A program made the translations under genes and the position numbers. The notes beneath the pieces were generated by a model. That model saw only the letters and a list, made by a program, of their open reading frames with translations, was not told where the DNA came from and ran no database searches. A stretch of DNA of 64,000 bases from an uncultured candidate division Zixibacteria bacterium. GTDB taxonomy: Bacteria > Zixibacteria > MSB-5A5 > SM1-73. The stretch lies in NCBI GenBank assembly GCA_903908285.1, contig CAIVRH010000029.1, positions 102,037 through 166,036 on the forward strand, in the 5' to 3' direction. Positions within the stretch are counted from its first letter, which is position 1; every line of letters begins with the position of its first letter. Positions 8,281 through 24,967 of this stretch are shown here, in pieces.

Positions 8281-8835
8281 TTACTTCACGACAAAACGCT
8301 CGATCCACTGTTCGAATGCTTGCAGGAATTTCTTCAGGTAATCTCTTGTCGAATCGTTGATCAAATTCCCTTTGTCGTCGAACAAGCTGGCAGCATTGCC
8401 GATGTATGCTTCTGGCTGTCCCATGGTGGGCACGTTGACGAACACCAGAGACTGCCTGAGGTGATGGTTGGCGCCAAAAGCACCGAGCGCACCTGTGGTG
8501 CAGCTGATGACCGCGCCCGGTTTACCGTTCCACGTGTTTTGTCCATATGGACGCGATCCCATATCGATGGCGTTTTTCAAAACGGCGGGAACCGAGCGGT
8601 TATACTCCGGTGTAACAAACAGAACGGCATCGGCCGATTTGACCCTCTGCCTGAATTCGTTCACTTCTTTGGGCGGATTTTCCTCGAGATCTTGATTGTA
8701 GAACGGCAGATTGCCGATTTCGACGATTTCAAGCTTGAGCGATTCCGGCGCCAGAACAATTAATGCTTTTGCTAATTTGCGATTCCACGAATCCCTACGC
8801 AAACTGCCGACAAAGACTGCTACATTCTTGTACAT
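8281..8835 (-). CDS. NADPH-dependent FMN reductase family protein
   Basis: 184 aa. MYKNVAVFVGSLRRDSWNRKLAKA...VLFVTPEYNRSVPAVLKNAIDMGSRPYG is the FMN_red/ChrR/ArsH-type fold. Confidence 0.8.
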   Translation of the reverse strand: MYKNVAVFVGSLRRDSWNRKLAKALIVLAPESLKLEIVEIGNLPFYNQDLEENPPKEVNEFRQRVKSADAVLFVTPEYNRSVPAVLKNAIDMGSRPYGQNTWNGKPGAVISCTTGALGAFGANHHLRQSLVFVNVPTMGQPEAYIGNAASLFDDKGNLINDSTRDYLKKFLQAFEQWIERFVVK

Positions 8836-8872
8836 AACCCTAAAATCCTTTCACCAAAAATAAGACTACATT

Positions 8873-8899
8873 AGAATAGTGTGAGGAGCACGGGATTCC
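8873..8899 (-). repeat. cassette-boundary element (attC-like imperfect palindrome), copy a
   Basis: agaatagtgtgaggagcacgggattcc, about 45 nt downstream of the stop of gene 8942-9322. rc reads GGAATCCCGTGCTCCTCACACTATTCT. Confidence 0.5.
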
Positions 8900-8941
8900 T
8901 ATCTTACTGATAATTGATCACCATATTCAGCTTTGAGTTCT

Positions 8942-9322
8942 TTACGAAGATACCTTTTGCGGAAGGAGCAGATAACCAAAACCGACCGCAAAGAAGAGAT
9001 AGATGATAACGATACCCCAGCCGAGCACATTCAAACCGCCGGAGAGCAAAATTGTCAGTGTGGCCACAAAGGCAACGGCATCATAGACGAATAAAGCCAG
9101 GATGATAGCCCACCGGGTGGCAGATGCTTCTGCGTTTCTGGCAAACCAGGTGAGCATGAGATTGCCGCAAAGTGCCGCCCCGTATTCCCTCGCCAACAGG
9201 GCGGCTCCCGAACCGAAAGAGGCGCCCAGAAGTTTCATAAGCGGTCCCGGCGCAAAGAGCAGGATTGGCGCGAATCCAATACAGACAACTGCCTTGATGA
9301 TCATCAGGGTTTTGAATTTCAT
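8942..9322 (-). CDS. small integral membrane protein
   Basis: 126 aa with four predicted hydrophobic helices. Confidence 0.45.
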   Translation of the reverse strand: MKFKTLMIIKAVVCIGFAPILLFAPGPLMKLLGASFGSGAALLAREYGAALCGNLMLTWFARNAEASATRWAIILALFVYDAVAFVATLTILLSGGLNVLGWGIVIIYLFFAVGFGYLLLPQKVSS

Positions 9323-9365
9323 CGAAACCCTCCCTCTTTTGAAAAGGTTATAGGTATAACTCTAT

Positions 9366-9689
9366 TTAAGCTACCGGACTCCATATATTGGCTGAAAAAG
9401 TGGCTGGTTCGATCAGCAGGTGAAAAGCCGACTGAATTTTCTTCATCCCCTCGTCGTCGAAAATCCTTTTATTTATCTTCTCGCTTTCTGCCAGGTTCTC
9501 GTACTCCCATATTTCAATGTACATGCCGGTCGGTGAACCGTAGGTCTGCTTGAAAAGCTTCCACGATATCACCCCGTCGAAAAGCTGGGCATGATCCTGC
9601 TTGTATTTGACGAACTCGTTCAGCAATGGCGTGAATTCTGCTTTTTTTTCTGCTTTCACAACATACGTTTCCACTACGAAGATACTCAT
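9366..9689 (-). CDS. ABM-like (antibiotic biosynthesis monooxygenase / stress-responsive alpha-beta barrel) protein
   Basis: 107 aa with the ferredoxin-like pattern ...FVKYKQDH...MYIEIWEYENLAESEK... Confidence 0.4.
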   Translation of the reverse strand: MSIFVVETYVVKAEKKAEFTPLLNEFVKYKQDHAQLFDGVISWKLFKQTYGSPTGMYIEIWEYENLAESEKINKRIFDDEGMKKIQSAFHLLIEPATFSANIWSPVA

Positions 9690-9759
9690 CTCTTCACCTC
9701 CTTCAAGCGAATTGAACTGCGCACTTGATAAATGAATGGTATCCGGGGCATGGTTTTCA

Positions 9760-9853
9760 TGATTTGGTGCTTGGTGCCAGCGCTGTTGCCAATTTACGGT
9801 TCCACGACTCCTTACGCAAACTGCCGACGAAGACTGCTAGATTCTTGTTCATA
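9760..9853 (-). pseudogene. degenerate 5' fragment of a FMN-reductase gene
   Basis: rc reads MNKNLAVFVGSLRKESWNRKLATALAPST*. About 85% nucleotide identity to 8760-8835 (the start of the intact FMN-reductase gene). Confidence 0.6.
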
Positions 9854-9940
9854 ATTACCTCTTTATGAAAGAGGATAATCTGTGTCAGGAGCTCGGAACA
9901 CATGACCACCGACTAGATGGAATAAATATATTATCCTTCT

Positions 9941-10510
9941 TCATTTGATTATTATTGGTGGTCCGGTATATGGAGCATAAAAGTCGCCACTTACCCTCAT
10001 TGAGTCACCTCCACCGTACTCACTACCTATCTCCGCGTTGATAGTAAACTGTACCTCGCCTGGGAATCCGCACTTCAGCTTTTGAAAAACAATCCCACCG
10101 TTCGACACTTCCTGCTCATTTGACAATTCGTTGGGAGCATCAACAACATAAAGTAAGACCCCTTTCGGTTGGTCCCATATGAAATAATTGGGGAACTTGA
10201 TCTCCTCGCCTATCTTCACATCGTCGACTACTGCCTGCAAATGCCAACAGGTTTTGCTGTCTGGATAATTGGAATCATAACCTACAAGAACGTTAAGGGT
10301 ATTGGTAGGGATCAAACCTTCTTCCCATTGTCCGCACCAAACTGAAGTCCTGGAGCTAAATACGACTTGGGTTCCGTCGGACCGTGTAAAGATAAGATTA
10401 TTCTTCACTGGACCAGTATCGGAGCGAGAGCTATTCTTGTGACAACCAATTAGATTGAACACGGATAAAACACCCACCAACAATATAATATAATTGTTAA
10501 AACGTAGCAT
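9941..10510 (-). CDS. hypothetical lipoprotein
   Basis: Signal peptide with lipobox (VFNLIGC). 189 aa. Confidence 0.5.
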   Translation of the reverse strand: MLRFNNYIILLVGVLSVFNLIGCHKNSSRSDTGPVKNNLIFTRSDGTQVVFSSRTSVWCGQWEEGLIPTNTLNVLVGYDSNYPDSKTCWHLQAVVDDVKIGEEIKFPNYFIWDQPKGVLLYVVDAPNELSNEQEVSNGGIVFQKLKCGFPGEVQFTINAEIGSEYGGGDSMRVSGDFYAPYTGPPIIIK

Positions 10511-10712
10511 ATTGCCTCCTTTCCATGAGGTAAGAATCCATCTCGTAATCGTGGCTAAGAGTTTTGGCAGGAGTTACAGCTCATGACCTTGTATCTTACC
10601 TTTCAGATCGTATCTTATGATCCGAACTCCTTTTTGAAGTTGAGCGCTGCGAATAGCTCGCACCTAAATATCTACCTCTCAAGAACTCCCACTTTGAATA
10701 CGATCTTCCTGT

Positions 10713-10766
10713 GTTATTTTATCAATCTCCTCTTCATCAGCTTGGTGCCGATGTAGAAAGCGGCAA
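10713..10766 (-). pseudogene. short fragment of an ABC-2 permease 3' end
   Basis: tatcaatctcctcttcatcagcttggtgccgatgtagaaagcggc matches 20545-20600. It is interrupted by a GC-rich palindrome. Confidence 0.5.
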
Positions 10767-10905
10767 TTCTGTAAGGGTCGCACAGACGTGCCCCCAGGCG
10801 GGAGCGTCCGCTCGTCTGGGCATTCATGCGACCCCCGCCTTTAGCGGGGCTGTAAGCCGCGGGCTTGACTTGTGGTGAGTTTATCGAACCATGAATCAAG
10901 CCCCT

Positions 10906-11060
10906 ACTTTATCAATCTTCTCTTCATCAGCCTGATGCCGATGTAGAAAGCGGCGGATTCGAGGAGAATGATGTATAAAAAGTCCATTAAAAGTCCCGGA
11001 GAAGGCTCGCCGGAGAAAGCGGAGCGGGAGATATTGACTACGTGGGTAAGGGGAACTCTT
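10906..11060 (-). pseudogene. degenerate copy of the ABC-2 permease 3' end (about 150 bp)
   Basis: Near-identical to the last ~50 codons of the permease gene at 20545-20700 (…SGEPSPGLALD…YIGIKLMKRRLIK), same orientation. Confidence 0.65.
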
Positions 11061-11189
11061 GATTAGACCTCGCCCCTCTCCCTTTAAGGGTGAACCCCGC
11101 CATATAGATTTTTAATATTTTTCTTACAGAGTGGCTTTAAGACGTGCTGAAAAACTTATTCTGAATTGTAGGGCATACACCTGCTCTAT

Positions 11190-12140
11190 TCAACCATGAA
11201 TGATCTGCTCGAGTAAGAATCCGGAGATATCGGTTTTGATCTGTATCCACAACGGGAGGTGGTCGGAGAGCTGGTAAGTGAATTCCTCTTTTTTCATACC
11301 GTCCGGGAAAAGTTCCTGGATATGGGCTTCGTCTATGAAGAAATCGAGCACGCCCCCTGCATTGCTAAAATTCTCCGGGTAGTTTGGATAATGGAGGATC
11401 TGATCATAGCGTTTACTTTTGGCGAGATCAGTGCCGGGGGCATCGAGGAGCTTATCGGGAATCTTCAGGCCGTATTTGGTGATGGCCTTGAACGTGGGGT
11501 CCTCGCGCGAGGGGATGTTGAAGTCGCCCATGATCATGAAGTCATGGTCTTCTGCAAATTTGTCCAGACGCTTGCCCTCGATCCAGGCGGCCAACATGGC
11601 TATTTCGCCCTCGCGCCCCTCCATGCTGTCGCCCCACCGAATGTGCGTGGTCAGCACCACGAAATCGAAGATGCCGGATTTGAAGGAAGCGAGGTAAGGA
11701 CTTCGCCAAAAGGACTTCTCGGACAAATATTCCTGACCTATTTTCTTGCGCGGCTCGTTCGCCTCGGCGGCCAGTCCGTTGAAGGTGGCAGCCCGCTGGT
11801 CATAAACATAAGCCACGCGTTCCCGGTTGCCGCCTAGGTCGGGGATGACGTCCGAGAAAACCGCGCGCCAGTAAGGTCCGAGGATTTTTAAAACCCGGCC
11901 GAGGTCAGCGAGATTGTCTCGCAATTCAACGATCCCAATCAGATCGAACTGGCCGAGGATTTCCGCAATGTAATGGATGGCCGCTTCACTGCGTGGTGTC
12001 TTGCCAAACTCCCGGATGTTCCAGGTGGCAATATTCAAGGTTTCGTCGAGTTTCGACGAGGGAATTTTCGCTGCCTGAATGCGCTTCTGCAAGGCAATCA
12101 AACCCCGGGCAATGTCCGGAGAAACATCTCCATGTTCCAT
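11190..12140 (-). CDS. endonuclease/exonuclease/phosphatase (EEP) family protein
   Basis: 316 aa. IATWNIREFG near the N-terminus, GDFN, and C-terminal SDHLPLW are the EEP catalytic motifs. No signal peptide. Confidence 0.75.
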   Translation of the reverse strand: MEHGDVSPDIARGLIALQKRIQAAKIPSSKLDETLNIATWNIREFGKTPRSEAAIHYIAEILGQFDLIGIVELRDNLADLGRVLKILGPYWRAVFSDVIPDLGGNRERVAYVYDQRAATFNGLAAEANEPRKKIGQEYLSEKSFWRSPYLASFKSGIFDFVVLTTHIRWGDSMEGREGEIAMLAAWIEGKRLDKFAEDHDFMIMGDFNIPSREDPTFKAITKYGLKIPDKLLDAPGTDLAKSKRYDQILHYPNYPENFSNAGGVLDFFIDEAHIQELFPDGMKKEEFTYQLSDHLPLWIQIKTDISGFLLEQIIHG

Positions 12141-12409
12141 AGGTATCCTCCTTTACCGCTTGTACTACTATTTATCAGTTATATGGAGCATCTAAGCTAC
12201 TAACTGACAATGAATAAGCAGATAGGTCAATTATCCTAAAGGATGATCGACAATTTTTCCCATCCAGCAGTCTTGCAGACATACTTAACCTACTATTACC
12301 GGGTCGTGACAGCACATAACTACCATCGAGCTAACGCAAGAGGGTCAGGTGTAGGTAGAACGTCACCCGGACCCTCCGGTTAGGCCAAATAGAAATAGTA
12401 GAGCAGCCA

Positions 12410-13246
12410 TCAATCAAATTTCAACTCGCGTTTGGTTGCCTCGCATTCCAACTGCGGAGTCTGGTTGTAGTGCCCTGCGTTCAGGTGGGCGCGGATTTTT
12501 GTCAGCACCTGTGCACGGGAAAGCGAATTGTTACAGGCGTACATTTCTTTGCAGAAATAGTAAGTGAACGCCCCATGCCAACCACCGGCGATATGGGCAT
12601 CCGCACTCGTCTGGTCGGCACGGCAGGCAGCCCAGAGGATGTGATGCACGATCCCCTTTTCCAGCAACCCGCGCGCGAGTCCGCGAGATCGCTTCCCTTC
12701 CACCTCGATGAATGCCTCCAACGATGGGGGCGGCAGGTAGCGCGGCGTTCGATCAAGCAGCAGGTCAACCGCCTTGAGTCCCGTACCGCTGTGGCAGGTA
12801 TCCAAGTAAACCTCCAAAAGCACATTGGGAGGAAGCTGGATGAACAAATCTCGCAGCTCGTCATCCACGATGACATGATTCCTGTCCCATTGGTTGCCTG
12901 CCTGGGTCAGGTCATGCGGGCAAAACGCCTCATCCGCACGATCAGGTTCATCGTGGTTTAAATCCGGCACCTGTGTGCCATGACTTGACAGGCTGAATAC
13001 CAAGTAGGAGTATTTGCCTGCTTTTGCGCCATCTACCATGGTTTTGAGGTTGCTCATGATATTGGCTTTTGTGGCTTGTGCATCGTGTAGCTGGGTAATA
13101 TCTGTGCCGGCAAATCCGAGCAGCTTCTGCAGCAAAGCCGACATTTCGTTGGCATCATTGACACAACCTTGCAACGTAGAACCGGGATAGTTCTTGAACT
13201 GATTGATTCCGACACATAGGGCTTTTCTGTTACTAGGCATAAGCAC
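12410..13246 (-). CDS. caspase-like peptidase (family C14)
   Basis: 278 aa. KALCVGINQFKN...LQGCVNDA, catalytic His in SSHGTQ, and catalytic Cys in DTCHSG. No signal peptide. Confidence 0.8.
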   Translation of the reverse strand: MLMPSNRKALCVGINQFKNYPGSTLQGCVNDANEMSALLQKLLGFAGTDITQLHDAQATKANIMSNLKTMVDGAKAGKYSYLVFSLSSHGTQVPDLNHDEPDRADEAFCPHDLTQAGNQWDRNHVIVDDELRDLFIQLPPNVLLEVYLDTCHSGTGLKAVDLLLDRTPRYLPPPSLEAFIEVEGKRSRGLARGLLEKGIVHHILWAACRADQTSADAHIAGGWHGAFTYYFCKEMYACNNSLSRAQVLTKIRAHLNAGHYNQTPQLECEATKRELKFD

Positions 13247-13490
13247 CTCCTTAGGTTGTGCTCGTTGGGATTGACAGGACCGTTCAGTAACGAGCCAGAC
13301 TAAGCCGGTCCCCTTTCATTGAACTTCATCCTCTGACTGATTTTCCCCTCATTTTTACAAAAGCACTCTTTTCCCTGGCATAATGTCAAGCGTCGGTGGC
13401 TGGGTGGGCGCTTTTTCCTCTCCGTCCACGAACACCCGAATCAGGCGACGGTTTAGCTTGACAGCAATTACAGCCTAACTCACTTTTGAC

Positions 13491-14438
13491 TTAAAACTTA
13501 AACTGTCCGGTATCGATCCACTCATTCTTTAGAACTGACCACCAATCAACAGCGAGTCCTTTCAACACATAGTCATAAGGGAGCCAACCATAACCGCCGG
13601 TACCCCATTCTGGACCCCAAGAGTTTCTGATGAGTAAGGCTCCTGTGGTTTCGACACCTCCCGGATTGGTGTTTTTAATCGTCATTCTATCGTCGTAACC
13701 AACGGCATCAATGGCATGACCACCTAAAATCTTCTCTCCGGGTGTGGGAAAAGGTATCTTTCCGGTTGTGGCAGCCTGGGATAAGGAACTATACACCGTA
13801 AAGCCGAACATCGAGGGTAGATAAGCAGCTAAATTTGTCTTGATCCGATTCAGCAGAGCATCCTTAGGAGTTCCAGGCGGATCATAACGGTAGTAGCTAA
13901 TCGCCTTGTAGCTCTGGGCGTAGGCATAGCAGAATGCCGGCGGCTCCAGATCAAAGTGGTAGGTTGGAACAATAGGCTCGCCGATTCCTTTATCGGTGTA
14001 CGGCCAATATTCCTCCGGGGGCACGCCAAATAATACCAATGCGCCCATGGTGGTACGAAGAAAGGCTCCGGTGTCTCCAGACCAGTGTAACATGTTTCGG
14101 GTTGCCTTATAAAGGAAGAGTCTGGAAGCATCAATATGTTTTCCGAAGGCCTTTTTCTCAAAATACTCTACTATTCCAACACCCGCATGGGCCGTGCATG
14201 AACCAAGACTAAGTTGGTTCTCGATAGGAGAGCACCAGGGCCTTAAATCTGCAGATACCGGCAGGCTTACTCCCGCCGGTTCCGCTACTCCTGCTTTCTT
14301 GAGCATGGCCTTAACAGAATCTGCCTGTCCCAAAGCTTTAAGCGTTTCAGGAATATCTTCTTGCTCTACCGTGTGGTCCCTGAAATCGGGATAATCCGGT
14401 AGCCATCCCATTCCCAATTTTTCAATGATCTCAGCCAT
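13491..14438 (-). CDS. papain-like cysteine peptidase (family C1)
   Basis: CSPIENQLSLGSCTAHA (oxyanion Gln plus catalytic Cys), GGHAIDAVGYDD (catalytic His), and NSWGPEWGTGGYGW. The start is taken at the internal ATG at 14438, which has a GGAGGTG RBS; the longer ORF start at 14537 is unlikely. Cytoplasmic. Confidence 0.8.
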   Translation of the reverse strand: MAEIIEKLGMGWLPDYPDFRDHTVEQEDIPETLKALGQADSVKAMLKKAGVAEPAGVSLPVSADLRPWCSPIENQLSLGSCTAHAGVGIVEYFEKKAFGKHIDASRLFLYKATRNMLHWSGDTGAFLRTTMGALVLFGVPPEEYWPYTDKGIGEPIVPTYHFDLEPPAFCYAYAQSYKAISYYRYDPPGTPKDALLNRIKTNLAAYLPSMFGFTVYSSLSQAATTGKIPFPTPGEKILGGHAIDAVGYDDRMTIKNTNPGGVETTGALLIRNSWGPEWGTGGYGWLPYDYVLKGLAVDWWSVLKNEWIDTGQFKF

Positions 14439-15146
14439 AATATACACCTCCAATTCAATTAGGACCTTAGTTTGTCGAGTTTTTCTACCAAAACAACCTA
14501 CAAGACAGCAATCCGCTTTGCTAACTAATCGCTTCACCTCCTTTCAGCGCCAATCATAATGCCGCCTAACTCTGAATATACTGCCCGGTATAACACCCGG
14601 GGTACCGCTCCGAGTGTTATATAATACACAGCAGAAAAAACTGTCTACTTGGTCATATCCGATGAAATATCAGGTGGTCACATCGAGACGCCGGTTTTAT
14701 CGCAGCGTCTTCTTTGCGTCAATAGAGATTCCTTCGTGTCTATTTTTATACAACTAAGTCAAGAACCTGATACCGCTAATATTTATCAAGTTTATAGGGA
14801 CTTAGCCTGCGAACCTATTATAACTACCCCTAATTATATTTCTGTATTCTATTCTTAAAAAATATAGGACTACTGTCAAATTTTGTCAAGCTTTTTTTAT
14901 AATATTTCTGAAAAATCGTTCCTACGGGGCTTGATGCCCCTTCCTCCAACATTGAGGTCTTAAAGACCGAAGGGCAGGATGAAGCTCTCTTGTGCGTTGG
15001 TAACCTATTGAGATTCAACACGAAAACGAGCAGAGTCTACCTTAAGCAGGATTATTTTTGGCATTTATTCAGGGCTTTATATGGGGATATTTATGATTAA
15101 TAATTTCTATCGACTAAGATTAATTGAGGATATTGCTTCCGACCGC

Positions 15147-15296
15147 TATTTTATCAATCTTCTTTTCATCAGCTTGATGCCGATGTAGAAAGCGGCGGTT
15201 TCGAGGAGAACGATGTACAAAAAGTCCAGCGCCAAGCCCGGTGAAGGCTCGCCGGAAAAAGCTCAAGCGGGAGATATTTACTGCGTGGGTAAGGTG
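15147..15296 (-). pseudogene. degenerate copy of the ABC-2 permease 3' end
   Basis: About 150 bp, same orientation, roughly 90% identical to 20545-20700. Confidence 0.65.
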
Positions 15297-15310
15297 GAGA
15301 GTTTTTCTTA

Positions 15311-15375
15311 AACCTCTCCCCCTGTCCTAAGGATCTTCGATATCCCACTCTCCACATTTGTGGAGAGAGGGACTA
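15311..15375. repeat. family-1 variant between the permease fragment and the FMN-reductase fragment
   Basis: aacctctccccctgtcc...cccactctccacatttgtggagagagggac. Confidence 0.55.
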
Positions 15376-15386
15376 TTGGGCGGCCA

Positions 15387-15414
15387 AGAATAGTGTCAGG
15401 AGCACGAGGCTCCT
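15387..15414 (-). repeat. cassette-boundary element, copy b
   Basis: agaatagtgtcaggagcacgaggctcc immediately downstream of the FMN-reductase 5' fragment. rc has a GGAGC-ctcgt-GCTCC hairpin. Confidence 0.5.
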
Positions 15415-15424
15415 AACCTGCAAA

Positions 15425-15533
15425 CTTGCGTGGCTAAGGGCGCCAGCGCGATCAATGCTTTTGCCAATTTGCGATTCCACGAATCCTTCCGCAAACTGCC
15501 GACGAAGACTGCCACATTATAGTTCTTATTCAT
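15425..15533 (-). pseudogene. degenerate 5' fragment of a FMN-reductase gene
   Basis: rc reads MNKNYNVAVFVGSLRKDSWNRKLAKALIALAP... It matches 8735-8835 and is followed by a premature stop. Confidence 0.6.
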
Positions 15534-15544
15534 AATGATCCTTT

Positions 15545-15571
15545 AGAATAGTGTCAGTAGCGCGGGGCTCC
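15545..15571 (-). repeat. cassette-boundary element, copy c
   Basis: agaatagtgtcagtagcgcggggctcc, 5-30 nt downstream of the stop of gene 15576-16046. Confidence 0.5.
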
Positions 15572-15575
15572 AGAC

Positions 15576-16046
15576 CTACTTGCTCTTGCGTGTACACCGC
15601 CCTTTGTGTTTTTTTCTATCCCAAAATAGACTTCGCCAACTTTTAATCTCGAAGGGAACGAGGGCATTGTGCAGAGTTGAAGTACCTCTTGTCCGGACAT
15701 ATCGACCATTTTTCCGGCTCCAACCATGATCGTCGACAATTTTCTCTGCTTCAGAATAAGGCATTCCAAAGGCCCGGGTCTGCAACTCTGTCCCCACATT
15801 CCAAAGATAAACAATGTAGAGATCTGGAATTTTCAGATATTTCTGGTCCGTGAAGAACTCCTCTCCAGAAAAAGACTTCAACTGAAGAGGGAGGGCTCGG
15901 AAACCTTCATCCACGCAATCGGTATAGACGATGAGATCTATCCCTTCGTCAATGTCTGGGCGAGCAAACTTTATTCCCTCTCGGTAAAGCTTCTCTGCAA
16001 CGTAAGCTTCCCCGATTTTTTCGATTTGATGGCTCGATAGTTCCAT
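15576..16046 (-). CDS. small PD-(D/E)xK (Mrr-cat-like) nuclease-fold protein, hypothetical
   Basis: 156 aa. EKIGEAYVAEKLYREG...PDIDEGIDLIVY...LPLQLKS fits the D...D/E-x-K (QxK variant) pattern of Mrr-type catalytic domains. This is a weak call. Confidence 0.35.
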   Translation of the reverse strand: MELSSHQIEKIGEAYVAEKLYREGIKFARPDIDEGIDLIVYTDCVDEGFRALPLQLKSFSGEEFFTDQKYLKIPDLYIVYLWNVGTELQTRAFGMPYSEAEKIVDDHGWSRKNGRYVRTRGTSTLHNALVPFEIKSWRSLFWDRKKHKGRCTRKSK

Positions 16047-16088
16047 TTTATCTTTTCAGACTGGATATCTCGATTAAGACTCTTATCT

Positions 16089-16146
16089 CAAGTGCCCTGC
16101 GCACCTGAAAAACGAATAGTGGCAGGAGCATGAGGTATCTGACATA
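16089..16146 (-). repeat. cassette-boundary element, extended copy d
   Basis: caagtgccctgcgcacctgaaaaacgaatagtggcaggagcatgaggtatctgacata, downstream of the REC gene stop. Confidence 0.5.
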
Positions 16147-16205
16147 ATACAGCTACTAACTACTTTGTAGCAATACAGTTGTTGTAGCTAACTTAGTATT
16201 AGAAC

Positions 16206-16952
16206 TCATGTTGGTTGTTTTTTCCCAACTTTGATAGGATTCGACCGACTCTCTGCAATTGTCGTAATGGATTTTTGCACCAAACTCTCAATGGAGTAAC
16301 AAAACTCTATATTTTGGAAACGTACAATCATAACGTCTTTACTAATATTCTCAACTTGTTCCGGCTTATATGCTGTATAGAAGATAACTGGGAGGTCCCG
16401 AATTACAAGATCATCATGTTTCTCGCGTAGTTCTTTTATTTGCTCCATACCACCGTAGGTAGCATTCCCCTGTTTGTCTCTCCATTGAATATCCGATATA
16501 ATCAAGTCAAAGTCATTATCTTCCTCGATTCTTTTCTTAATGGTTTCCGGTGTGGCTGATATAACCTCAATTCCCAATGCCCTCAACAAGCGCCTCTCAC
16601 CAACAACCACATGTGGATTATCGTCTATCCAGAGGATTCTTCCCCCCTGCGCTTCAGCAATTTTGGAACCCAAACTCGCAAGCAGTCTTCTGAGCTTCTT
16701 AGGTTGAGCATCTAACATTCCATATAACGCTCCCTGAACCTGCGGTTGTTCTAATTGCAACTCGACGCCACCAGCCTTAAAGTATTTCAGTCTTTCCCAA
16801 GGAAGAACCAAGATCAAAACTGCAACAACAAAAAGCACAAGAATAGTGGTATCCATATTGTGACTTGCGATATCATGCATTTTCAACCTCATTAATATAA
16901 TTAACATCGCGAAACCGGTTAGTCCGAACTTTATCCCGAGCCACGTTTTCAT
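16206..16952 (-). CDS. membrane-anchored stand-alone response-regulator receiver (REC) domain protein
   Basis: Two N-terminal transmembrane helices, then a canonical REC: ILWIDDNP (acidic pair), DLIISDIQW (phospho-acceptor Asp), VIFYTAY (Thr), YKP (Lys). No output domain and no kinase nearby. Confidence 0.7.
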   Translation of the reverse strand: MKTWLGIKFGLTGFAMLIILMRLKMHDIASHNMDTTILVLFVVAVLILVLPWERLKYFKAGGVELQLEQPQVQGALYGMLDAQPKKLRRLLASLGSKIAEAQGGRILWIDDNPHVVVGERRLLRALGIEVISATPETIKKRIEEDNDFDLIISDIQWRDKQGNATYGGMEQIKELREKHDDLVIRDLPVIFYTAYKPEQVENISKDVMIVRFQNIEFCYSIESLVQKSITTIAESRSNPIKVGKKQPT

Positions 16953-17090
16953 TTGTTACCCTCGCTTGATTGGTTGACCTAGTAAATGTTTGCTATTCAA
17001 CTATTAACTATATGGTTACTTCATCTCACATTTTTGACACTTACCAGCGACAAAAAGGATTAATGTGCATTGGTTCCAAAGATTCACAGA

Positions 17091-17147
17091 TCAAGTGCCC
17101 TGCGCACCAGACAAATGAATAGTGTCAAGAGCACGGGACTGCTGATC
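17091..17147 (-). repeat. cassette-boundary element, extended copy e
   Basis: tcaagtgccctgcgcaccagacaaatgaatagtgtcaagagcacgggactgctgatc, downstream of the ABC ATPase stop. About 80% identical to copy d. Confidence 0.5.
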
Positions 17148-17208
17148 TACCTACTATTTCGCCTCTCCAATCTGAAACTAAAAATCCTTAATAAATTTTT
17201 TATCTTAA

Positions 17209-19002
17209 TCAGAATTTTGGCAAATTAAACAAGGTGCCAGCCTGTCCCTCATCATTTAGTTCCCTGATAATTTCTTCTTTCTTGAATTCAATAACCTTGT
17301 CATTTTCATCCCTTGGTAAATCTGCAGTAATTATAGTCAAGATGTACTGCAATCCATAGGAACCACAATATTCCCTGACAAGTTCTAGAAAATTATTCTT
17401 CTTTCTGTTATCAAGGCCCTCAAGGATGCCATCATGGTAAACGAATCTGAAAAAAGAGCGTTTTGCATAATTTTTCAATATGGCCAAATCGAAAGCAGCG
17501 CAAAGTAGCTTCTTGTAGGTTGTTCCTCTGCCTTCGCTTGTTGCCTCCATAGTTTTTTCATCATGGACAATATCAGCACTAAAGTCAATATTGCCCATAG
17601 TATTAATCTTAATAGACAATAAAGCTGAAATATTCAAAACTGCTTTGATAATCCTGTCAAAATCATTTCTAATATCGGAATATAAGCTCGCTCCAGCCTT
17701 AATTTGGTCGTTGATATTGTCAACAAGCCCTTTTCTCTTCTGTTCATATCCATCTATCTCTTTTTGTATGACAGCAACTGAATCAAGAGTCTCAAGCTGA
17801 GAATGCAGTCTTACTAAATCAGTCTCCTGGTGCACTAAGCTTTTCTGTAGCAATTTAAACTTATCAAAAGTATCTTCTCCTCGTAATATTCTGAGAAGAT
17901 CCTCTCTTTTTGAATTTAAATCTCTCAGTTGTCCGCATACCGAATCCTGCTCTTGCTTCAAAGTTTGAAGCCTTTCTTTTAGTCTCTTATTTCTTTCAGC
18001 AGAAATATTCTCATTAAATTTTACTAAATCCGTGTAGCCTTTCATCAGTTTATCAGGAAAATGAATCTGTGTTTCCTCAAATATCTGTTTTACTTCATTC
18101 AAGTCAAAATTGACTTTGGCTTCTAGAGCATCCTGAATTTTCTCAATCTCATAATTAATGTTGTAAACCTGATCATTAAGAGAGGCGATTTCAGTCTCAG
18201 TCTTCTCGACTAATTCTTTATTAATACTGAGCTCTTTTTCATAAAAATTAAACCTATCTATCTTTTCATAAGCTTCTTTTATTTCCCTCTGCTTTATTTC
18301 AATGGCTCCTTTTAGCTTGTCATATTCCTCTGTCTTTGTAGTCAAGGTCTTTTTATATTCCGCCTTGTATTTCTCCCTGCTCTCTATTGTCTTATCTATT
18401 TCATATTTCTCTTTCAACAAAGAGTCATCAAAACCCAATAATTTTGCAAGATAAGGCTTCCATTGAGAATGTTCCCCAATGCTGAATTTGCTTATCTGGA
18501 AAACATCTTGATAATCGCTTTGCGTCCTCAAGAAATAAGAAACACCTTTCCGGTAAGGCCATGGTGCTATCGAATCAAGATCAAGATAGGAATTAAGACT
18601 GTCTACCGCCTTCCGGATTGGCATTCCGCTGTAATCCCATTGCTTTTCTCCATGATTTTTAAAATCCTGGAATTTATCGTCATGAATTTTGAAACATATC
18701 TTGGTATTGTTATCAACACATCGTTTGATGGTTAGATATTTACCTGAATTAAGCAGTATCTCCAGATAAAACTCGAATCCCCTGAACTCTTTTTTATTGT
18801 CATAAAGAAAGTGCCCATCTTTCAACTCCTTAAGTAAAAGAAAATCAATAAGATGAATAAGGAGGGTTTTACCTAGATTATGTGAATCTTTATAAGTTTC
18901 CTTGGGTCTTCTGACTTTCCCATAAATTACATTAAAGCCTTCATTAAAGTGGATGGGCTTAAATATCTCGTCTCTGTTTGAATATATCTTGCTTAGTTTC
19001 AT
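17209..19002 (-). CDS. SMC-like ABC ATPase with a long coiled-coil insert (Lamassu LmuB / ABC-3C ATPase-like)
   Basis: 597 aa. N-terminal KLSKIYSNRDEIFKPIHFNEGFNVIYG...SHNLGKT (Walker A). About 300 aa of KE-rich coiled coil. C-terminal ...GRGTTYKKLL...FFRFVYHDGILEGLD (signature / Walker B / D-loop analogues). Confidence 0.6.
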   Translation of the reverse strand: MKLSKIYSNRDEIFKPIHFNEGFNVIYGKVRRPKETYKDSHNLGKTLLIHLIDFLLLKELKDGHFLYDNKKEFRGFEFYLEILLNSGKYLTIKRCVDNNTKICFKIHDDKFQDFKNHGEKQWDYSGMPIRKAVDSLNSYLDLDSIAPWPYRKGVSYFLRTQSDYQDVFQISKFSIGEHSQWKPYLAKLLGFDDSLLKEKYEIDKTIESREKYKAEYKKTLTTKTEEYDKLKGAIEIKQREIKEAYEKIDRFNFYEKELSINKELVEKTETEIASLNDQVYNINYEIEKIQDALEAKVNFDLNEVKQIFEETQIHFPDKLMKGYTDLVKFNENISAERNKRLKERLQTLKQEQDSVCGQLRDLNSKREDLLRILRGEDTFDKFKLLQKSLVHQETDLVRLHSQLETLDSVAVIQKEIDGYEQKRKGLVDNINDQIKAGASLYSDIRNDFDRIIKAVLNISALLSIKINTMGNIDFSADIVHDEKTMEATSEGRGTTYKKLLCAAFDLAILKNYAKRSFFRFVYHDGILEGLDNRKKNNFLELVREYCGSYGLQYILTIITADLPRDENDKVIEFKKEEIIRELNDEGQAGTLFNLPKF

Positions 19003-19015
19003 TTTCTATTATTGT

Positions 19016-19264
19016 TTACGTATTATTTTTACCAATAAATTCCAATGAATCTGTCTGTAAGTGGTATTCGATCATGCCGAGTAAATATAAAAAATCCAAC
19101 GACGGCACAAAAACATGTTTTACATCTTCTCCAATCTTGCCAACCAAATACTGCAATACCTCACTATATTCCATTACTCTGTTATTCTCGAACAGCTTAA
19201 TAAGCATGGAGGATACCCTGACTACAGATAAGTCCAAATCCATATATTTTGTCGGGGTTATCAT
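19016..19264 (-). CDS. small alpha-helical 'middle component' (LmuC-like) of the ATPase module
   Basis: 82-aa ORF tightly sandwiched between the effector and the ATPase: 4-nt overlap upstream and a 13-nt gap downstream, which suggests translational coupling. Confidence 0.35.
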   Translation of the reverse strand: MITPTKYMDLDLSVVRVSSMLIKLFENNRVMEYSEVLQYLVGKIGEDVKHVFVPSLDFLYLLGMIEYHLQTDSLEFIGKNNT

Positions 19265-20199
19265 TTCTTCTCACCTATATCGCAATTACAGTACATATAA
19301 TGCAAAAACACATTTATCAAAGTTCGCGATTCCCTAAGTTCGGGATGCTTGTCAAGTATTGTATCGTAAAGATGCTCAAAAATTTCTTCGAATTTGGCAA
19401 ATTCATTCTTTCTTGTGATTATCTTCCCTTTCAACTCATCAATCGTATTGTAGTAGTAATCTGTATACTTCTTGTTTATCAGCTTCTTTAGGAAAGCTGT
19501 TATTGCATTAAAGGAAGACTCCGAATTTTCCTTGATATATTTAAAATACTCTTCACTCAACTTATTCAGCTCGTTCTTTGTTTCAAGGCTTACATAGTCG
19601 AACGAGTACTTGCTGTCAAATTCCGTAGCAACCTGCTCTCGGTCATTATAAAAAGCTACGATAACATCCCTTATGTCATCAGAGTGTATTCTTAATGGAT
19701 CTCTGAATTTCTCAAGGTTACAAGTTTTTACTATGGCAGGATTCGCATCAAGCCAAAGAGTAATCGCCTCAACTCCAATAATCTCAACATTGGAAATGCT
19801 AAGATTATTCTTGAGATAATCCGTTTGCTGCTGATGTGCTTCAGCAGTAAGTTTTCTGTTTGTGAAAATGAGATAATTATCAACTTCTCCATTTTGTTTT
19901 AACTTCTTAATTTTGGGGATTTCTTTGTCCAATATCTTAGTCTTAAAATCCGCATGAGAACAACTCGAGTTAGGGTTATTAGTCTTTTTTGCCTGAATAA
20001 TAAATTTTCCTGTCCATGGTCTTGCAGCACTTGGATACTGGTTTGAAGTGCCTTCAAACTTCCCATCTCTACCACCATCTGGCCCTTCACTGAAATTTAT
20101 GGTTCCAATTCCCAATATTTTTTGGCAAATATGGATAACCAGATCCTCAAATTTCTGTGTAGAAAGCTCGTGAAGATGATAATCCCTCATTATAAACAC
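19261..20199 (-). CDS. Mrr-type restriction-endonuclease-fold effector protein
   Basis: The N-terminus FEDLVIHICQKILGIGTINFSEGPDGGRDGKFEG...GKFIIQAKK matches the Mrr_cat pattern (F-E-x-L...G...G-DGG-D-G...IQ-x-K). The C-terminal ~170 aa have no recognisable domain. Confidence 0.55.
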   Translation of the reverse strand: MFIMRDYHLHELSTQKFEDLVIHICQKILGIGTINFSEGPDGGRDGKFEGTSNQYPSAARPWTGKFIIQAKKTNNPNSSCSHADFKTKILDKEIPKIKKLKQNGEVDNYLIFTNRKLTAEAHQQQTDYLKNNLSISNVEIIGVEAITLWLDANPAIVKTCNLEKFRDPLRIHSDDIRDVIVAFYNDREQVATEFDSKYSFDYVSLETKNELNKLSEEYFKYIKENSESSFNAITAFLKKLINKKYTDYYYNTIDELKGKIITRKNEFAKFEEIFEHLYDTILDKHPELRESRTLINVFLHYMYCNCDIGEKK

Positions 20200-20541
20200 C
20201 TCTTAACGTATACCAAATTACTTATTAATAAACTTATCTTAAAAAAATAGCTGTTAGATTTTGCCGCTTATTTAATCTATTATATTAGAAAGGAGATAAA
20301 AACCAAGAGAAAAAAGCCACTCAAATCTATATTTTGAAACTTGCCCATATCCAGCTTAAATTTGGAAGATCAGGTGTCATGCACACTTGACAAAAAAAAG
20401 TATCAAGAACACGTATCTCCTCATCTATTATTATCTATTCATAAACTATTATAATCATTCATGCCATCTTGTCAAGCACTTAAGAACAGTAATTATGCGT
20501 TTTTACATAATAATTTTTCTAACAAGCGCGGGCTTCGACCA

Positions 20542-21309
20542 CTACTTTATCAACCTTCTCTTCATCAGCTTGATGCCGATGTAGAAAGCGGCGGATTCAA
20601 GGAGAATGATGTATAAAAAGTCCAGCGCCAAGCCCGGAGAAGGCTCGCCGGAGAAAGCGGAGCGGGAGATATTTACCGCATGGGTAAGAGGAAGGAACTT
20701 GGCGAAGAATTTCATCCAACCGGGGAACCGGTCCAGCGGGAAAAATACTCCGGAGAAAAAGAGCATGGGGGTGATAATCAGCTCGGTATAGTAATTGAAG
20801 AAGTCGAAGTTCGGCGCAAACGAGGTTACGATCATCGCCAGCGAGCCGAACAAGATACCGATGAAAACCATCAAGACCAACAGAAGCAGAACGTTGACTA
20901 TCGAGACCGGATATACATGCATGAAAGTGGCAACCACCAGCATGAGCGACCCGCTGATCAATCCCCGGAAAGCTCCCCAGGCGACCTCTCCGGCTATGGC
21001 ATCCTCTGCGGATACGGGGGTGGCTATCAAAGAGTCGAAGAGCTTCTGGTAGGTGACCTTGACGAAGGTGCCGTATAAACACTCGAAAGTCGACGAGAGC
21101 ATCACCGAAGATACCAAAACGCCGGGGACGAGAAAATTCAGATAGGGCTTCCCGCCGAAATACCCCATATATGCGCCCATGCCGATGCCGAAGGTGATCA
21201 GATAGAAGAGCGGCTGCCCCAGACTGACCACGAAGGTGGTGAGAACGAACCTTTTGTATGAAATAAGGTTCCGGTAAAAGACATAATATATGCGGTAAGA
21301 AAGATTCAT
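20542..21309 (-). CDS. ABC-2 type transporter permease
   Basis: 255 aa with six hydrophobic helices. Paired with the upstream ATP-binding gene. Confidence 0.8.
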   Translation of the reverse strand: MNLSYRIYYVFYRNLISYKRFVLTTFVVSLGQPLFYLITFGIGMGAYMGYFGGKPYLNFLVPGVLVSSVMLSSTFECLYGTFVKVTYQKLFDSLIATPVSAEDAIAGEVAWGAFRGLISGSLMLVVATFMHVYPVSIVNVLLLLVLMVFIGILFGSLAMIVTSFAPNFDFFNYYTELIITPMLFFSGVFFPLDRFPGWMKFFAKFLPLTHAVNISRSAFSGEPSPGLALDFLYIILLESAAFYIGIKLMKRRLIK

Positions 21310-22358: not shown

Positions 22359-22374
22359 ATCCGAAAACCACCTT

Positions 22375-24649: not shown

Positions 24650-24712
24650 GGAAAAAATATAAGTGTTTTGAGATGGAATGTAAAGAGAAGGAAACAAATA
24701 AACCTCTCCCCC

Positions 24713-24762
24713 TATGTCCCCCTCTCCGTTACACGGAGAGGGGGATTAAAGGGGGTGAGGTT
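24713..24762. repeat. nested-palindrome intergenic element (REP/MITE-like family 1)
   Basis: cctctccccct...tccccctctccgt tac acggagaggggga...agggggtgaggtt: an outer inverted repeat enclosing an inner inverted repeat. Confidence 0.7.
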
Positions 24763-24967
24763 AAGAAAGATTTCCGGAAAAGAAAATGGGCGGGATATTC
24801 GTATGAACGCATACGCGATTCCCGCCCCTATGTTAATGGGATATACCGCAGAGGCATCCTTCGACTTCGCTCAGGACAAAAGTAAAGCCTCTGCTACGCG
24901 GATAGAGTTTTTGTTGGATGATAACATCCAACCAGAGCGGGAAGCAAACCCTTCAACGATTGATTCG

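What the first reader, a model, noticed from the sequence alone, without database searches (positions are those of the whole stretch)
8281..21309. Hypervariable island between an ABC-2 permease gene and a FMN-reductase gene, partitioned by duplicated gene-end fragments
The last ~150 bp of the permease gene (20545-20700, encoding …SGEPSPGLALD…YIGIKLMKRRLIK) recur in the same orientation at 15147-15296, 10906-11060 and, shortened, at 10713-10766. The first ~100 bp of the FMN-reductase gene (8735-8835, MYKNVAVFVGSLRRDSWNRKLAKA) recur at 15425-15533 and 9760-9853 as stop-interrupted fragments (MNKN..VAVFVGSLRK.SWNRKLA…). Together these form permease-3'-fragment / cargo / FMN-reductase-5'-fragment units. 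This is what is expected if the original permease-reductase junction was repeatedly duplicated while different cargo was inserted. The cargo is enriched in nucleases, peptidases and a Lamassu-like module, so the region looks like a defence or accessory island hotspot. No integrase or transposase is visible in the window.
Basis: seen in the sequence. Interest (0 to 1): 0.75.

Follow-up and report, generated by a model that had tools for sequence, protein, structure and literature searches.

The report
Gene-swapping hotspot partitioned by displaced gene ends
Between a transporter gene and an FMN-reductase gene of an uncultivated Zixibacteria-like bacterium lies a real gene-swapping hotspot in which several accessory and defence modules are stacked, each separated by a leftover copy of a flanking gene's end, and no integrase gene is in sight.

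Summary
The last 158 nt of the ABC-2 permease gene recur three times and the first ~100 nt of the FMN-reductase gene recur twice. All copies are in the same orientation (BLASTN E from 1e-56 to 3e-21). Independent assemblies reproduce the whole arrangement at 99.9-100% identity.

About a dozen related genomes have the same flanking genes but different cargo. This includes toxin-antitoxin-like pairs, a restriction-modification system, a kinase, caspase and peptidase genes, a transporter, or just one methyltransferase. Many also carry permease-3' or reductase-5' fragments.

In one informative pair (L028/L030) the resident permease 3' end was pushed downstream. It was replaced by a foreign allele that arrived with the new module.

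I found no integrase or transposase in the 64-kb window or in any related island. Fragment boundaries are not all at one position (-158, -100 and -50 for the permease; +100 and +200 for the reductase).

The best reading is an additive island built by duplicative, flank-homology-guided recombination of hotspot segments from other strains. A recombinase acting in trans is not excluded. This is a variant of known island and hotspot biology, of moderate interest.

The parts
20542..21309 (-). Intact ABC-2 type permease gene (255 aa). It is the left flank of the hotspot and lies downstream of its ABC ATPase gene (21432-22457).
   Evidence: Pfam ABC2_membrane E 7.8e-24. It is 85-98% identical in aa to the permeases of related Zixibacteria-like contigs.
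20539..20700 (-). Reference copy of the repeated unit: the last 158 nt of the permease gene plus the stop codon. The left boundary is at AAG TTCC..CTTACCCATGCGG.
   Evidence: All long fragments in the window and in relatives start at this same position (query position 45 of 203).
20375..20541 (-). Conserved region downstream of the permease gene. It has a consensus sigma-70-type promoter (TTGACA-16-TATAAT, 20475->20448) reading into the island, followed by a degenerate copy of the hairpin motif.
   Evidence: 12/12 promoter match. The region is conserved behind the permease in W, L069, L022, L028, L070 and L023 although the cargo differs. W/L069 similarity ends at 20379.
17209..20199 (-). Module 1 cargo: an ABC-3C (Lamassu-family-like) three-gene system. 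The genes are the Mrr_cat-CTD12 effector (19261-20199), the MC8 middle component (19016-19264) and the DUF2326 ABC ATPase (17209-19002). GC is 35% against 46% for the window.
   Evidence: Pfam CTD12 8.6e-31, Mrr_cat 6e-6, MC8 1.7e-13, DUF2326 1.4e-26. PADLOC PDC-M68B 2e-60, with only a weak LmuB hit at 0.006. GC.
15576..16952 (-). Module 1, further cargo: a membrane-anchored receiver-domain protein (16206-16952) and a DUF4365-like protein (15576-16046). Each is preceded by a full copy of the 60-nt hairpin motif (17082-17166 and 16079-16163).
   Evidence: Pfam Response_reg 1.6e-6 and DUF4365 5.7e-4, both below the curated cut-offs. Motif copies.
15439..15596 (-). FMN-reductase 5' fragment A. 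It comprises the native upstream hairpin, the start codon and 32-33 codons, and is cut at ...CTGGCGCC.
   Evidence: It is 88-90% identical to the reductase 5' ends of L002, L069 and L070 but only 83% identical to the window's own gene.
15300..15437 (-). Junction filler between reductase fragment A and the permease fragment. It holds a hairpin-motif copy (15370-15437) and REP-like palindromes (CTCTCCACAAATGTGGAGAG, GGGGGAGAGG).
   Evidence: The same arm precedes a permease fragment in L067. The same palindrome family is found at 24693, 26893 and 32165.
15143..15299 (-). Permease 3' fragment f15, a frameshifted scar.
   Evidence: 90% identity, E 2e-54. Frameshift shown.
11190..14889 (-). Module 2. 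It starts with a promoter-like site resembling the one behind the permease (14889->14861). Then come a papain-type C1 peptidase (13491-14537), a caspase-like C14 peptidase (12410-13246) and an EEP-family nuclease/phosphatase (11190-12140).
   Evidence: Pfam, PADLOC 'caspase' 1.6e-16, promoter scan 11/12. A related caspase plus C1 peptidase pair sits directly behind the permease in L023.
10901..11055 (-). Permease 3' fragment f11. It is in frame but has no start codon, and is an alpha/beta hybrid allele.
   Evidence: 89.7% identity, E 1.4e-56. Its last third and the following 'tail' match the gene ends of L030 and L066 (85-91%).
10715..10900 (-). Structured 'tail' element (10767-10900, GGGGCTTGATTCATGGTTCGATAAACTCACC...) followed by the short permease fragment (10715-10766).
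   Evidence: The same tail followed by a truncated fragment sits right behind the intact permease in L030 (98-nt fragment) and L066 (48-nt fragment).
9941..10510 (-). 189-aa predicted lipoprotein, cargo with no family match.
9696..9909 (-). FMN-reductase 5' fragment B (hairpin 9880-9909, coding part 9782-9853). It is cut at the same position as fragment A and is followed by a degenerate motif copy (9696-9750).
8942..9689 (-). Two small cargo genes: 107 aa (weak NIPSNAP-like match) and a 126-aa membrane protein. In L028, L030 and L066 their homologues lie downstream of the FMN reductase, in the opposite relative order.
8281..8920 (-). Intact NADPH-dependent FMN reductase gene (8281-8835) with its upstream hairpin (8852-8920). 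This is the right flank of the hotspot.
   Evidence: Pfam FMN_red 1.1e-41. The hairpin upstream of the gene is conserved in relatives.

Best explanation
The interval between the permease and FMN-reductase genes is a lineage-wide recombination hotspot that grows by addition. Each arriving module is a copy of the hotspot from another strain. It consists of the last ~158 nt of the permease gene, the conserved downstream promoter region, cargo and, in some cases, the first ~100-200 nt of the reductase gene.

The module recombines through its homology to a flanking gene end. This could be a single-crossover (Campbell-type) insertion of a circularised segment. It could equally be an unequal or illegitimate join followed by homologous exchange. 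The flanking gene stays intact but now ends in the incoming allele. The resident gene end is pushed into the island as a non-functional fragment.

Repeating this stacks modules: ABC-3C+RR+DUF4365 | C1 peptidase+caspase+EEP | lipoprotein | two small genes. The scars then serve as portable homology for further shuffling. The conserved outward promoter behind the permease, and similar ones behind fragments, can express whatever lands there.

Shown: the repeats, the stacking, the variation among relatives, the import of a foreign gene end that displaced the resident one, and the absence of a recombinase gene in cis. Inferred: the circular intermediate and the dependence on RecA-type homologous recombination.
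For: - The repeats are significant and all in direct orientation.
- The architecture is reproduced in independent assemblies.
- Relatives share the flanks but not the cargo. They carry their own permease-3' fragments: L002 x1, L027/28/29 x2, L030 98 nt, L066 48+155 nt. One carries a reductase-5' fragment (L069, 216 nt).
- L028 against L030. The permease is 98-100% identical up to 137 nt before the stop. From there the L028 gene carries a foreign allele, the one seen in L025. The first L028 fragment differs from the L030 gene end at only 3 of 158 positions. So the incoming module brought its own gene end and displaced the resident one.
- Reductase fragment A (88-90%) is closer to the alleles of L002, L069 and L070 than to the window's own gene (83%).
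- Each unit carries downstream permease-type sequence. A promoter-like site similar to the one behind the permease follows the 15143-15299 fragment. The same post-stop sequence precedes the second DUF2283 pair whether it follows the gene (L002) or a fragment (L028, L066).
- The arm in front of the L002 and L028 fragments is sequence that lies upstream of the reductase gene in L070. That is what a join between the reductase-proximal end and permease position -158 would give.
- Boundaries differ between events: -158, -100 and -50 for the permease, +100 and +200 for the reductase.
- No integrase or transposase is present in the window, and none was annotated or recognised in about 12 related islands (precomputed Pfam; 10 cargo ORFs scanned; the other ORFs were only listed, not scanned). 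No viral contig carries the permease 3' sequence.
Against: - All long permease fragments start at exactly the same position (-158..T[T/C]AAG|TTCC..). Yet they are joined to three unrelated upstream arms. Random end-joining would not predict this. It fits a site-specific crossover, or a single founding junction whose neighbours were later replaced.
- In L028 the crossover lies in the first 21 nt of the unit, although a 32-nt identical stretch further in would be a better substrate for homologous recombination.
- No circular form, empty site (permease directly next to reductase) or excision variant was found.
- Only about 10 kb on each side of the relatives was held, so a recombinase encoded elsewhere in these genomes cannot be excluded.
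Confidence: 0.55

Rival explanations
1. Classical site-specific accretion. A tyrosine or serine recombinase encoded elsewhere in the genome, or on a helper element, acts in trans. It integrates integrase-less circular modules at a core site about 158 nt before the permease stop codon. Each module carries an attP that includes a replacement 3' end. The displaced ends are attR scars, as in tRNA/tmRNA islands and CIME-type elements.
For: - The left boundary (-158) is constant for all long fragments in five genomes, with three unrelated arms and a conserved T(T/C)AAG at the junction where the intact genes have CCAAG.
- The L028 crossover lies within the first 21 nt.
- There is a small inverted repeat, TTACC-CATGC-GGTAA, at the boundary.
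- A roughly 1-kb DUF2283 module behaves as a unit in three genomes.
Against: - No recombinase gene is present in the 64-kb window, and none was annotated or recognised in the related islands.
- Other duplication boundaries exist at -100 and -50, and on the reductase side at +100 and +200. One core site cannot explain these.
- The units carry ordinary chromosomal sequence from downstream of the permease rather than a dedicated attP arm.
- L002's gene end resembles its own fragment. This implies crossovers or gene conversion inside the unit.
Confidence: 0.25
2. In-situ tandem duplication of the permease-to-reductase junction by unequal or illegitimate sister-strand exchange. The cargo in one copy is then replaced by ordinary double-crossover homologous recombination with DNA from other strains.
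For: - Reductase fragment A and the permease fragment at 15143-15299 lie next to each other (15544->15143). That is the junction expected of a tandem duplication.
- Flank alleles are mosaic, which shows frequent homologous exchange at this locus.
- A second locus in the window also shows a duplicated gene 5' end (33449-33506 and 35211-35268, 95%).
Against: - The fragments differ by 10-27% from the resident gene ends and match alleles of other lineages.
- In L028 the gene end, not the fragment, is the foreign one, and the switch lies right at the unit boundary.
- About 140 nt of unrelated repeat sequence separates the two fragments at the supposed duplication junction.
- The end product is the same as in the best explanation, so the two differ mainly in the order of events.
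Confidence: 0.15
3. Artefact. The metagenome assembler concatenated co-occurring strains through shared repeats, or the copies are collapsed paralogues.
For: Short-read contigs of this population often break at or near the fragments (L077, L078, L080 and L082 end there). A strain with another island (L069) co-occurs in the same sample as pieces of this island.
Against: - The copies differ from each other by 10-27% and have unique junctions.
- Several independent assemblies span every junction at 99.9-100% identity.
- The same kind of architecture is found in unrelated samples: L002, L027/28/29 and L066.
Confidence: 0.02

Closest known systems
Additive genomic islands in tandem arrays at tRNA/tmRNA or protein-gene 3' ends. 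Examples: islands catalogued by Islander/TIGER, Prochlorococcus tycheposons, Dehalococcoides ssrA islands.
   Same: The target gene is regenerated by sequence brought in by the incoming DNA. The displaced gene fragment marks the far end of each unit. Newer units push older ones further into the island, and scars accumulate (PMC4383910 abstract; 10.1101/2020.12.28.424599; PMC3146451).
   Different: Those elements encode, or visibly derive from elements encoding, an integrase next to the att site, and they recombine at one fixed core. Here no recombinase gene was found in any version. Fragments of both flanking genes occur, and the boundaries are not all at one position.
CIMEs (cis-mobilisable elements) and accretion-mobilisation at the 3' end of fda in Streptococcus thermophilus. 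This comparison rests on my own knowledge; I did not read the papers here.
   Same: Short modules flanked by att-like direct repeats of a gene's 3' end. They lack their own recombination genes and are stacked in tandem.
   Different: CIMEs depend on the integrase of a related ICE that targets the same site. No such partner element or integrase was found here.
Replacement flexible genomic islands and core defence hotspots bounded by conserved core genes. Examples: Rodriguez-Valera/Lopez-Perez replacement islands, E. coli defence hotspots, Pseudomonas aeruginosa cDHS.
   Same: The flanking core genes are the same across strains and the cargo between them is unrelated, often defence genes. There are no mobile-element hallmarks. 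Exchange is through homology in the flanks (PMC10121019 and PMC10250203).
   Different: Replacement swaps one cargo for another and leaves no internal copies of the flanks. Here the modules are added in series and are separated by flank-gene fragments.
Integron cassette arrays, and CALINs (attC clusters lacking an integrase)
   Same: Co-oriented, functionally unrelated small modules, including toxin-antitoxin-like pairs and defence genes, lie behind a conserved outward promoter. They are punctuated by a repeated structured element.
   Different: There is no intI. By inspection the 60-nt motif lacks the R''/L''-L'/R' architecture and the GTTRRRY core of attC. The motif is not present at every module boundary.

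Membership tests
Integrase-mediated tandem island array (attL/attR derived from the 3' end of the target gene) | The target gene is regenerated, and a displaced fragment of its 3' end lies in direct orientation at the distal end of each unit. | tested here: met
   Displacement of the resident end is shown for L028.
Integrase-mediated tandem island array (attL/attR derived from the 3' end of the target gene) | A tyrosine or serine recombinase gene lies inside the element or array, usually next to an att site. | tested here: not met
   Pfam scans of 47 of the 48 window ORFs of at least 90 aa found none. None was annotated or recognised in the islands of L001, L002, L022, L023, L028, L030, L066, L069 or L070 (precomputed Pfam; 10 cargo ORFs scanned; the other ORFs were listed but not scanned). 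Genome regions outside the held DNA were not searched.
Integrase-mediated tandem island array (attL/attR derived from the 3' end of the target gene) | A single fixed crossover or core position is shared by all junctions. | tested here: inconclusive
   All long fragments start at -158. Tail-type fragments start at -100 and -50, and reductase fragments end at +100 or +200.
Core-gene-flanked replacement island or defence hotspot | Related genomes have the same flanking core genes and unrelated cargo between them. | tested here: met
   Some relatives (L001, L023, L084, L085) lack the reductase flank within the DNA held.
Core-gene-flanked replacement island or defence hotspot | Exchange is by homologous recombination in the flanks, seen as mosaic flank alleles. 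| tested here: met
   Identity profiles of the permease and allele classes of the 158-nt unit.
Integron / CALIN | An intI integrase with an adjacent attI site. | tested here: not met
   No recombinase of any kind was found.
Integron / CALIN | attC sites (R''-L''...L'-R' with a GTTRRRY core) at the 3' end of each cassette. | tested here: not met
   The repeated motif is GTAG plus a 9-bp hairpin with an alternative second hairpin. It has no GTTRRRY/RYYYAAC boxes by inspection. The dedicated attC covariance model was not available.
ABC-3C / Lamassu-family defence system (cargo of module 1) | A three-gene set: an SMC-like ABC ATPase, a middle component, and an effector with an ABC-3C C-terminal domain. 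| tested here: met
   DUF2326 1.4e-26, MC8 1.7e-13, Mrr_cat plus CTD12 8.6e-31. PADLOC PDC-M68B 2e-60, but LmuB only 0.006. Anti-phage activity was not tested.
REP / REPIN-type intergenic repeat (the 60-nt motif) | A conserved GTAG tetranucleotide 5' of an imperfect palindrome, in many intergenic copies, with an associated RAYT transposase. | tested here: inconclusive
   The GTAG plus palindrome and the multiple intergenic copies are seen. No RAYT gene is present in the DNA held. Window copies are confined to the island.

The most novel reading that the evidence does not exclude
The locus could be an integron-like expression and capture platform that works without a recombinase in cis. In this reading a conserved strong outward promoter behind the permease gene is followed by co-oriented modules. 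Their capture and reshuffling would be catalysed in trans at defined sites: the -158 permease core (T[T/C]AAG|TTCC...) and/or the GTAG-hairpin motif, which breaks consistently after CACTATTCT / TAATKTAG. That would make it a previously undescribed cassette system of Zixibacteria-like bacteria that banks defence genes.
Probability: 0.1. Interest if true: 0.8.

Novelty: new variant of a known kind. Interest (0 to 1): 0.45.

Why it matters
Defence and accessory genes are known to gather at a few chromosomal hotspots. For hotspots without mobile-element genes it is unclear how new modules get in and how several modules come to sit side by side.

This locus, in an uncultivated phylum, preserves a readable record. 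Each addition left a dated scar, a displaced end of one of the two flanking genes. At least one addition can be shown to have imported a foreign gene end.

If the stacking is driven by homologous recombination, it shows how 'replacement' islands can become 'additive' without any integrase. If a recombinase acts in trans, it defines a new attachment site and a family of integrase-less modules.

There is also a practical use. Fragments of flanking genes are a simple computational marker for finding and partitioning such islands in metagenomes, and they explain why short-read assemblies break there.

Tried and rejected
- Assembly artefact or collapsed paralogues. Rejected because independent assemblies span all junctions at 99.9-100% identity.
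- Prophage or viral origin of the permease-3' mimic. No exact pattern match was found in IMG/VR for two degenerate patterns.
- tRNA/tmRNA target. There is no tRNA or tmRNA in the window.
- Known RNA family for the 60-nt motif. There were no Rfam hits at gathering level or at E<=1.
- The motif as a cassette boundary. I tested it on methyltransferase genes that occur in three contexts (L070, L030, L072), but these are not homologous at the DNA level, so nothing could be learned. Block boundaries for the 126-aa and 107-aa genes coincide with the motif on only one side.
- Classical attC. Rejected by inspection.
- Simple circular permutation to explain why the 107-aa and 126-aa genes lie upstream of the reductase here but downstream in L028, L030 and L066. 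The cyclic order is reversed, so one circle integration cannot explain it. This remains unexplained.
- Excision or alternative arrangements in the same population. Look-ups by exact cargo proteins showed only the window arrangement. One look-up failed because the called start codon differs.
- More distant permease homologues (about 75% identity, from other phyla). They show no fragments and no reductase neighbour, so the phenomenon is confined to this lineage.

Full report
**Observation**

All genes in the region lie on the minus strand. The ABC-2 permease gene (20542-21309) and the NADPH-dependent FMN reductase gene (8281-8835) are intact (Pfam).

- The last 158 nt of the permease gene plus its stop codon recur in direct orientation at 15143-15299, at 10901-11055 and, shortened to about 50 nt, at 10715-10764. 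BLASTN E-values against the window are 2e-54, 1.4e-56 and 7e-16. The next best hit has E 0.3.
- The reductase start, with its upstream hairpin, recurs at 15439-15596 and 9782-9909 (E 4e-26 and 3e-21).
- The permease copies are scars. One is frameshifted and none has a start codon.
- The reductase copies are clean truncations at codon ~33, not stop-interrupted reading frames.
- Contigs from other samples and assemblies match the window at 99.9-100% and together span every junction. Misassembly and collapsed paralogues are therefore excluded.

**Anatomy, read along the direction of transcription**

1. Permease gene.
2. A 165-nt conserved region with a perfect TTGACA-16-TATAAT promoter (20475->20448).
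3. Module 1:
   - an ABC-3C/Lamassu-family three-gene system, made of a Mrr_cat-CTD12 effector, an MC8 middle component and a DUF2326 ABC ATPase (PADLOC PDC-M68B; GC 35% against 46% for the window);
   - a receiver-domain protein;
   - a DUF4365-like protein.
4. Reductase fragment A, then 140 nt of repeat sequence, then the permease fragment at 15143-15299.
5. Module 2: a papain-type peptidase, a caspase-type peptidase and an EEP nuclease/phosphatase.
6. The permease fragment at 10901-11055, a structured 135-nt 'tail', then the short permease fragment.
7. A 189-aa lipoprotein.
8. Reductase fragment B.
9. Two small genes.
10. The reductase gene.

Pfam scans of 47 of the 48 non-overlapping ORFs of at least 90 aa in the 64-kb window found no integrase, transposase or other recombinase; the 48th (24668-25000, 110 aa) was not scanned. 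There is no tRNA or tmRNA.

**Relatives**

The closest genome records are Zixibacteriota MAGs. I examined contigs with 85-98% identical permeases from genome, metagenome and protein-indexed collections.

| Locus | Content between the permease and the reductase |
|---|---|
| L070 | one methyltransferase (1.2 kb) |
| L022 | a HicB/UPF0150-like pair, a Ser/Thr kinase and two unknown genes |
| L002 | a DUF2283 pair, a permease fragment, then an N6/N4 methylase and an MjaI-type endonuclease |
| L027/L028/L029 (three samples) | two different DUF2283 pairs, each followed by a permease fragment, then Hypoth_Ymh-type genes |
| L030 | the 'tail' plus a 98-nt fragment, then a restriction-like pair |
| L066 | the tail plus a 48-nt fragment, the second DUF2283 pair, a 155-nt fragment and two unknown genes |
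| L069 (98% identical permease) | two unknown genes, a 216-nt reductase 5' fragment, then a second ABC transporter and an MFS gene before the reductase |

- L069 comes from the same sample as pieces of the window's island.
- L023 carries a related caspase plus peptidase pair directly behind the permease.
- More distant permease homologues (about 75% identity, from other phyla) show no fragments.
- No version was annotated with, or recognised as carrying, a recombinase gene; only part of the relatives' ORFs were scanned against Pfam.

The region is therefore a lineage-specific, hypervariable hotspot rich in defence and toxin-antitoxin genes. Flank-gene fragments are a recurrent feature of it.

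**How the fragments arise**

Three results bear on this.

First, the direction of events can be read in L028 against L030.
- Their permease genes are 98-100% identical up to 137 nt before the stop.
- From there the L028 gene carries a divergent allele, the one seen in L025.
- The first fragment downstream in L028 differs from the L030 gene end at only 3 of 158 positions.
- So a module (foreign gene end, downstream region, DUF2283 pair 1) was inserted, regenerated the gene with its own end, and displaced the resident end.
- In the same way, the window's reductase fragment A is closer to the reductase alleles of L002, L069 and L070 (88-90%) than to the window's own gene (83%).

Second, the units look like copies of the hotspot itself rather than dedicated mobile elements.
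- The same post-stop sequence precedes the second DUF2283 pair whether it follows the intact gene (L002) or a fragment (L028, L066).
- A promoter region like the one behind the permease also follows the 15143-15299 fragment.
- The arm in front of the L002 and L028 fragments is sequence that lies just upstream of the reductase in L070.
- In the window, reductase fragment A sits next to the 15143-15299 fragment.
- These are the joints expected if a segment running from permease position -158 to the reductase side of the hotspot was closed on itself and inserted by one crossover. An unequal exchange would give an equivalent product.

Third, the boundaries. Every long permease fragment in five genomes starts at the same base (-158). 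Each has a T(T/C)AAG where the intact genes have CCAAG. They are joined to three unrelated arms, one of which belongs to a GGGGGAGAGG palindrome family that also occurs at 24693, 26893 and 32165. This argues for either a site-specific crossover or a founding junction that spread by recombination. Against a single core site, tail-type fragments start at -100 and -50, and reductase fragments end at +100 (both copies in the window) or +200 (L069).

**Interpretation**

I rank duplicative, homology-guided stacking of hotspot segments from other strains first (0.55). Both fragment types, the variable boundaries, the chromosomal nature of the units and the absence of recombinase genes fit this reading.

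A trans-acting site-specific recombinase, as in CIME-like modules, comes second (0.25) because of the sharp -158 boundary. In-situ tandem duplication followed by cargo replacement gives the same product and is hard to separate from the first (0.15). Artefact is excluded (0.02).

The step from 'segment of another strain's hotspot' to 'circular or otherwise recombinogenic intermediate' is inferred, not shown.

**Comparison with known systems**

The logic of a regenerated target gene, a displaced fragment marking the unit end, and newer units pushing older ones inward is that of tandem integrase islands at tRNA/tmRNA or protein-gene ends. Examples are the Islander catalogue, tycheposons and the Dehalococcoides ssrA islands. 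The defining integrase is missing here and the fixed core is only partly met.

The population-level pattern of identical flanks, unrelated cargo and mosaic flank alleles is that of replacement flexible islands and core defence hotspots. Those replace cargo rather than stack it.

The promoter followed by co-oriented modules and a repeated structured element recalls integrons. However, there is no intI and the motif is not an attC by inspection.

I therefore call this a new variant of a known kind.

**Side observations**

- A 60-nt motif, GTAG + GTCAGGAGC-N5-GCTCCTGAC + CACTATTCATTT + GTCAGGTGCGCAGGGCAC, can form two mutually exclusive hairpins. It occurs five to six times in the island and nowhere else in the window. 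It occurs many times around the hotspot in relatives, always on the coding strand upstream of genes.
- Its first half is the native leader of the reductase gene.
- It has no Rfam match. It may be a REP-type repeat, a leader or attenuator, or a recombination substrate. I could not decide between these.
- A second locus in the window also shows a duplicated gene start (33449-33506 and 35211-35268, 95% identity). Duplicative insertion at gene ends may therefore be a more general habit of this genome.

**Verdict**

It is a well-preserved example of an additive, integrase-less hotspot in an uncultivated phylum. It is of moderate interest (0.45) and has a clear route to a decisive test using read-level junction analysis.

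Noticed in passing
window 17082-17166, 16079-16163, 15522-15596, 15370-15437, 8852-8920 (minus strand); degenerate copies at 9696-9750, 9880-9909 and 20375-20430; many copies in L022, L023, L030, L070 and L072: A ~60-nt structured repeat: GTAG, a 9-bp hairpin (GTCAGGAGC/GCTCCTGAC), CACTATTCATTT, and a third arm (GTCAGGTGC) that can pair with the second arm instead. In the window it is found only in the island. In relatives it lies upstream of many unrelated genes around the hotspot. There is no Rfam match. It could be a REP-like element, a leader or attenuator, or a recombination substrate.
   Followed up: partly
window 20448-20475 (minus strand); the same position behind the permease in L069, L022, L028, L070 and L023: A perfect sigma-70 consensus promoter (TTGACA-16-TATAAT) is conserved just downstream of the permease stop codon. 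It points into the variable cargo, much like an integron Pc promoter. A similar site (TTGACA-17-TATATT) follows the permease fragment at 14861-14889.
   Followed up: partly
window 33449-33506 and 35211-35268: A second case of a duplicated gene start. The first 17 codons plus the leader of the PHP-domain gene (32232-33503) are repeated at 95% identity as the start of the neighbouring 574-aa beta-propeller gene (33541-35265). That gene is itself a paralogue of 35301-37016.
   Followed up: no
window 8942-9689, compared with L028 15291-16687, L030 15059-16455 and L066 4472-5615: The 126-aa membrane gene and the 107-aa gene lie upstream of the FMN reductase here. In three relatives they lie downstream of it, in the opposite relative order. 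So the reductase-to-GNAT interval is a second variable region, and a single circle insertion cannot explain the rearrangement.
   Followed up: partly
window 10767-10900; L030 10769-10837; L066 267-341: A structured 'tail' element (GGGGCTYGATTCATGGTTCGATAAACTCACC..., with GGGTCGCATGAATGCGACCC hairpins) is inserted right after a permease 3' end and followed by a truncated permease fragment. The L066 version looks like a GCTT-microhomology deletion of the L030 version.
   Followed up: partly
window 24693-24754, 26893-26954, 32165-32226, 15300-15380; also 7692-7726/8206-8240 and 8130-8189/24882-24941: There are at least three further families of palindromic intergenic repeats: CCCCCTCTCC...GGAGAGGGGG; CCCCCTTGTCAGGGGG; and CTCGTTGGATGATAACATCCAACGAG. 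One family forms the arm joined to the permease fragment at 15143-15299. Another pair brackets the whole mnmE-to-reductase segment.
   Followed up: no
window 54585-60053: Three tandem paralogous genes encode SBBP beta-propeller repeat proteins with type IX secretion sorting domains. They are built from 159-nt internal repeats (15-19 copies).
   Followed up: no
L028 against L030, permease gene and upstream spacer: The permease body is 98-100% identical between these two genomes. The spacer just upstream is unalignable, and the mnmE-to-permease stretch (including that spacer) averages 91% identity. The permease gene itself therefore appears to be exchanged between lineages.
   Followed up: partly
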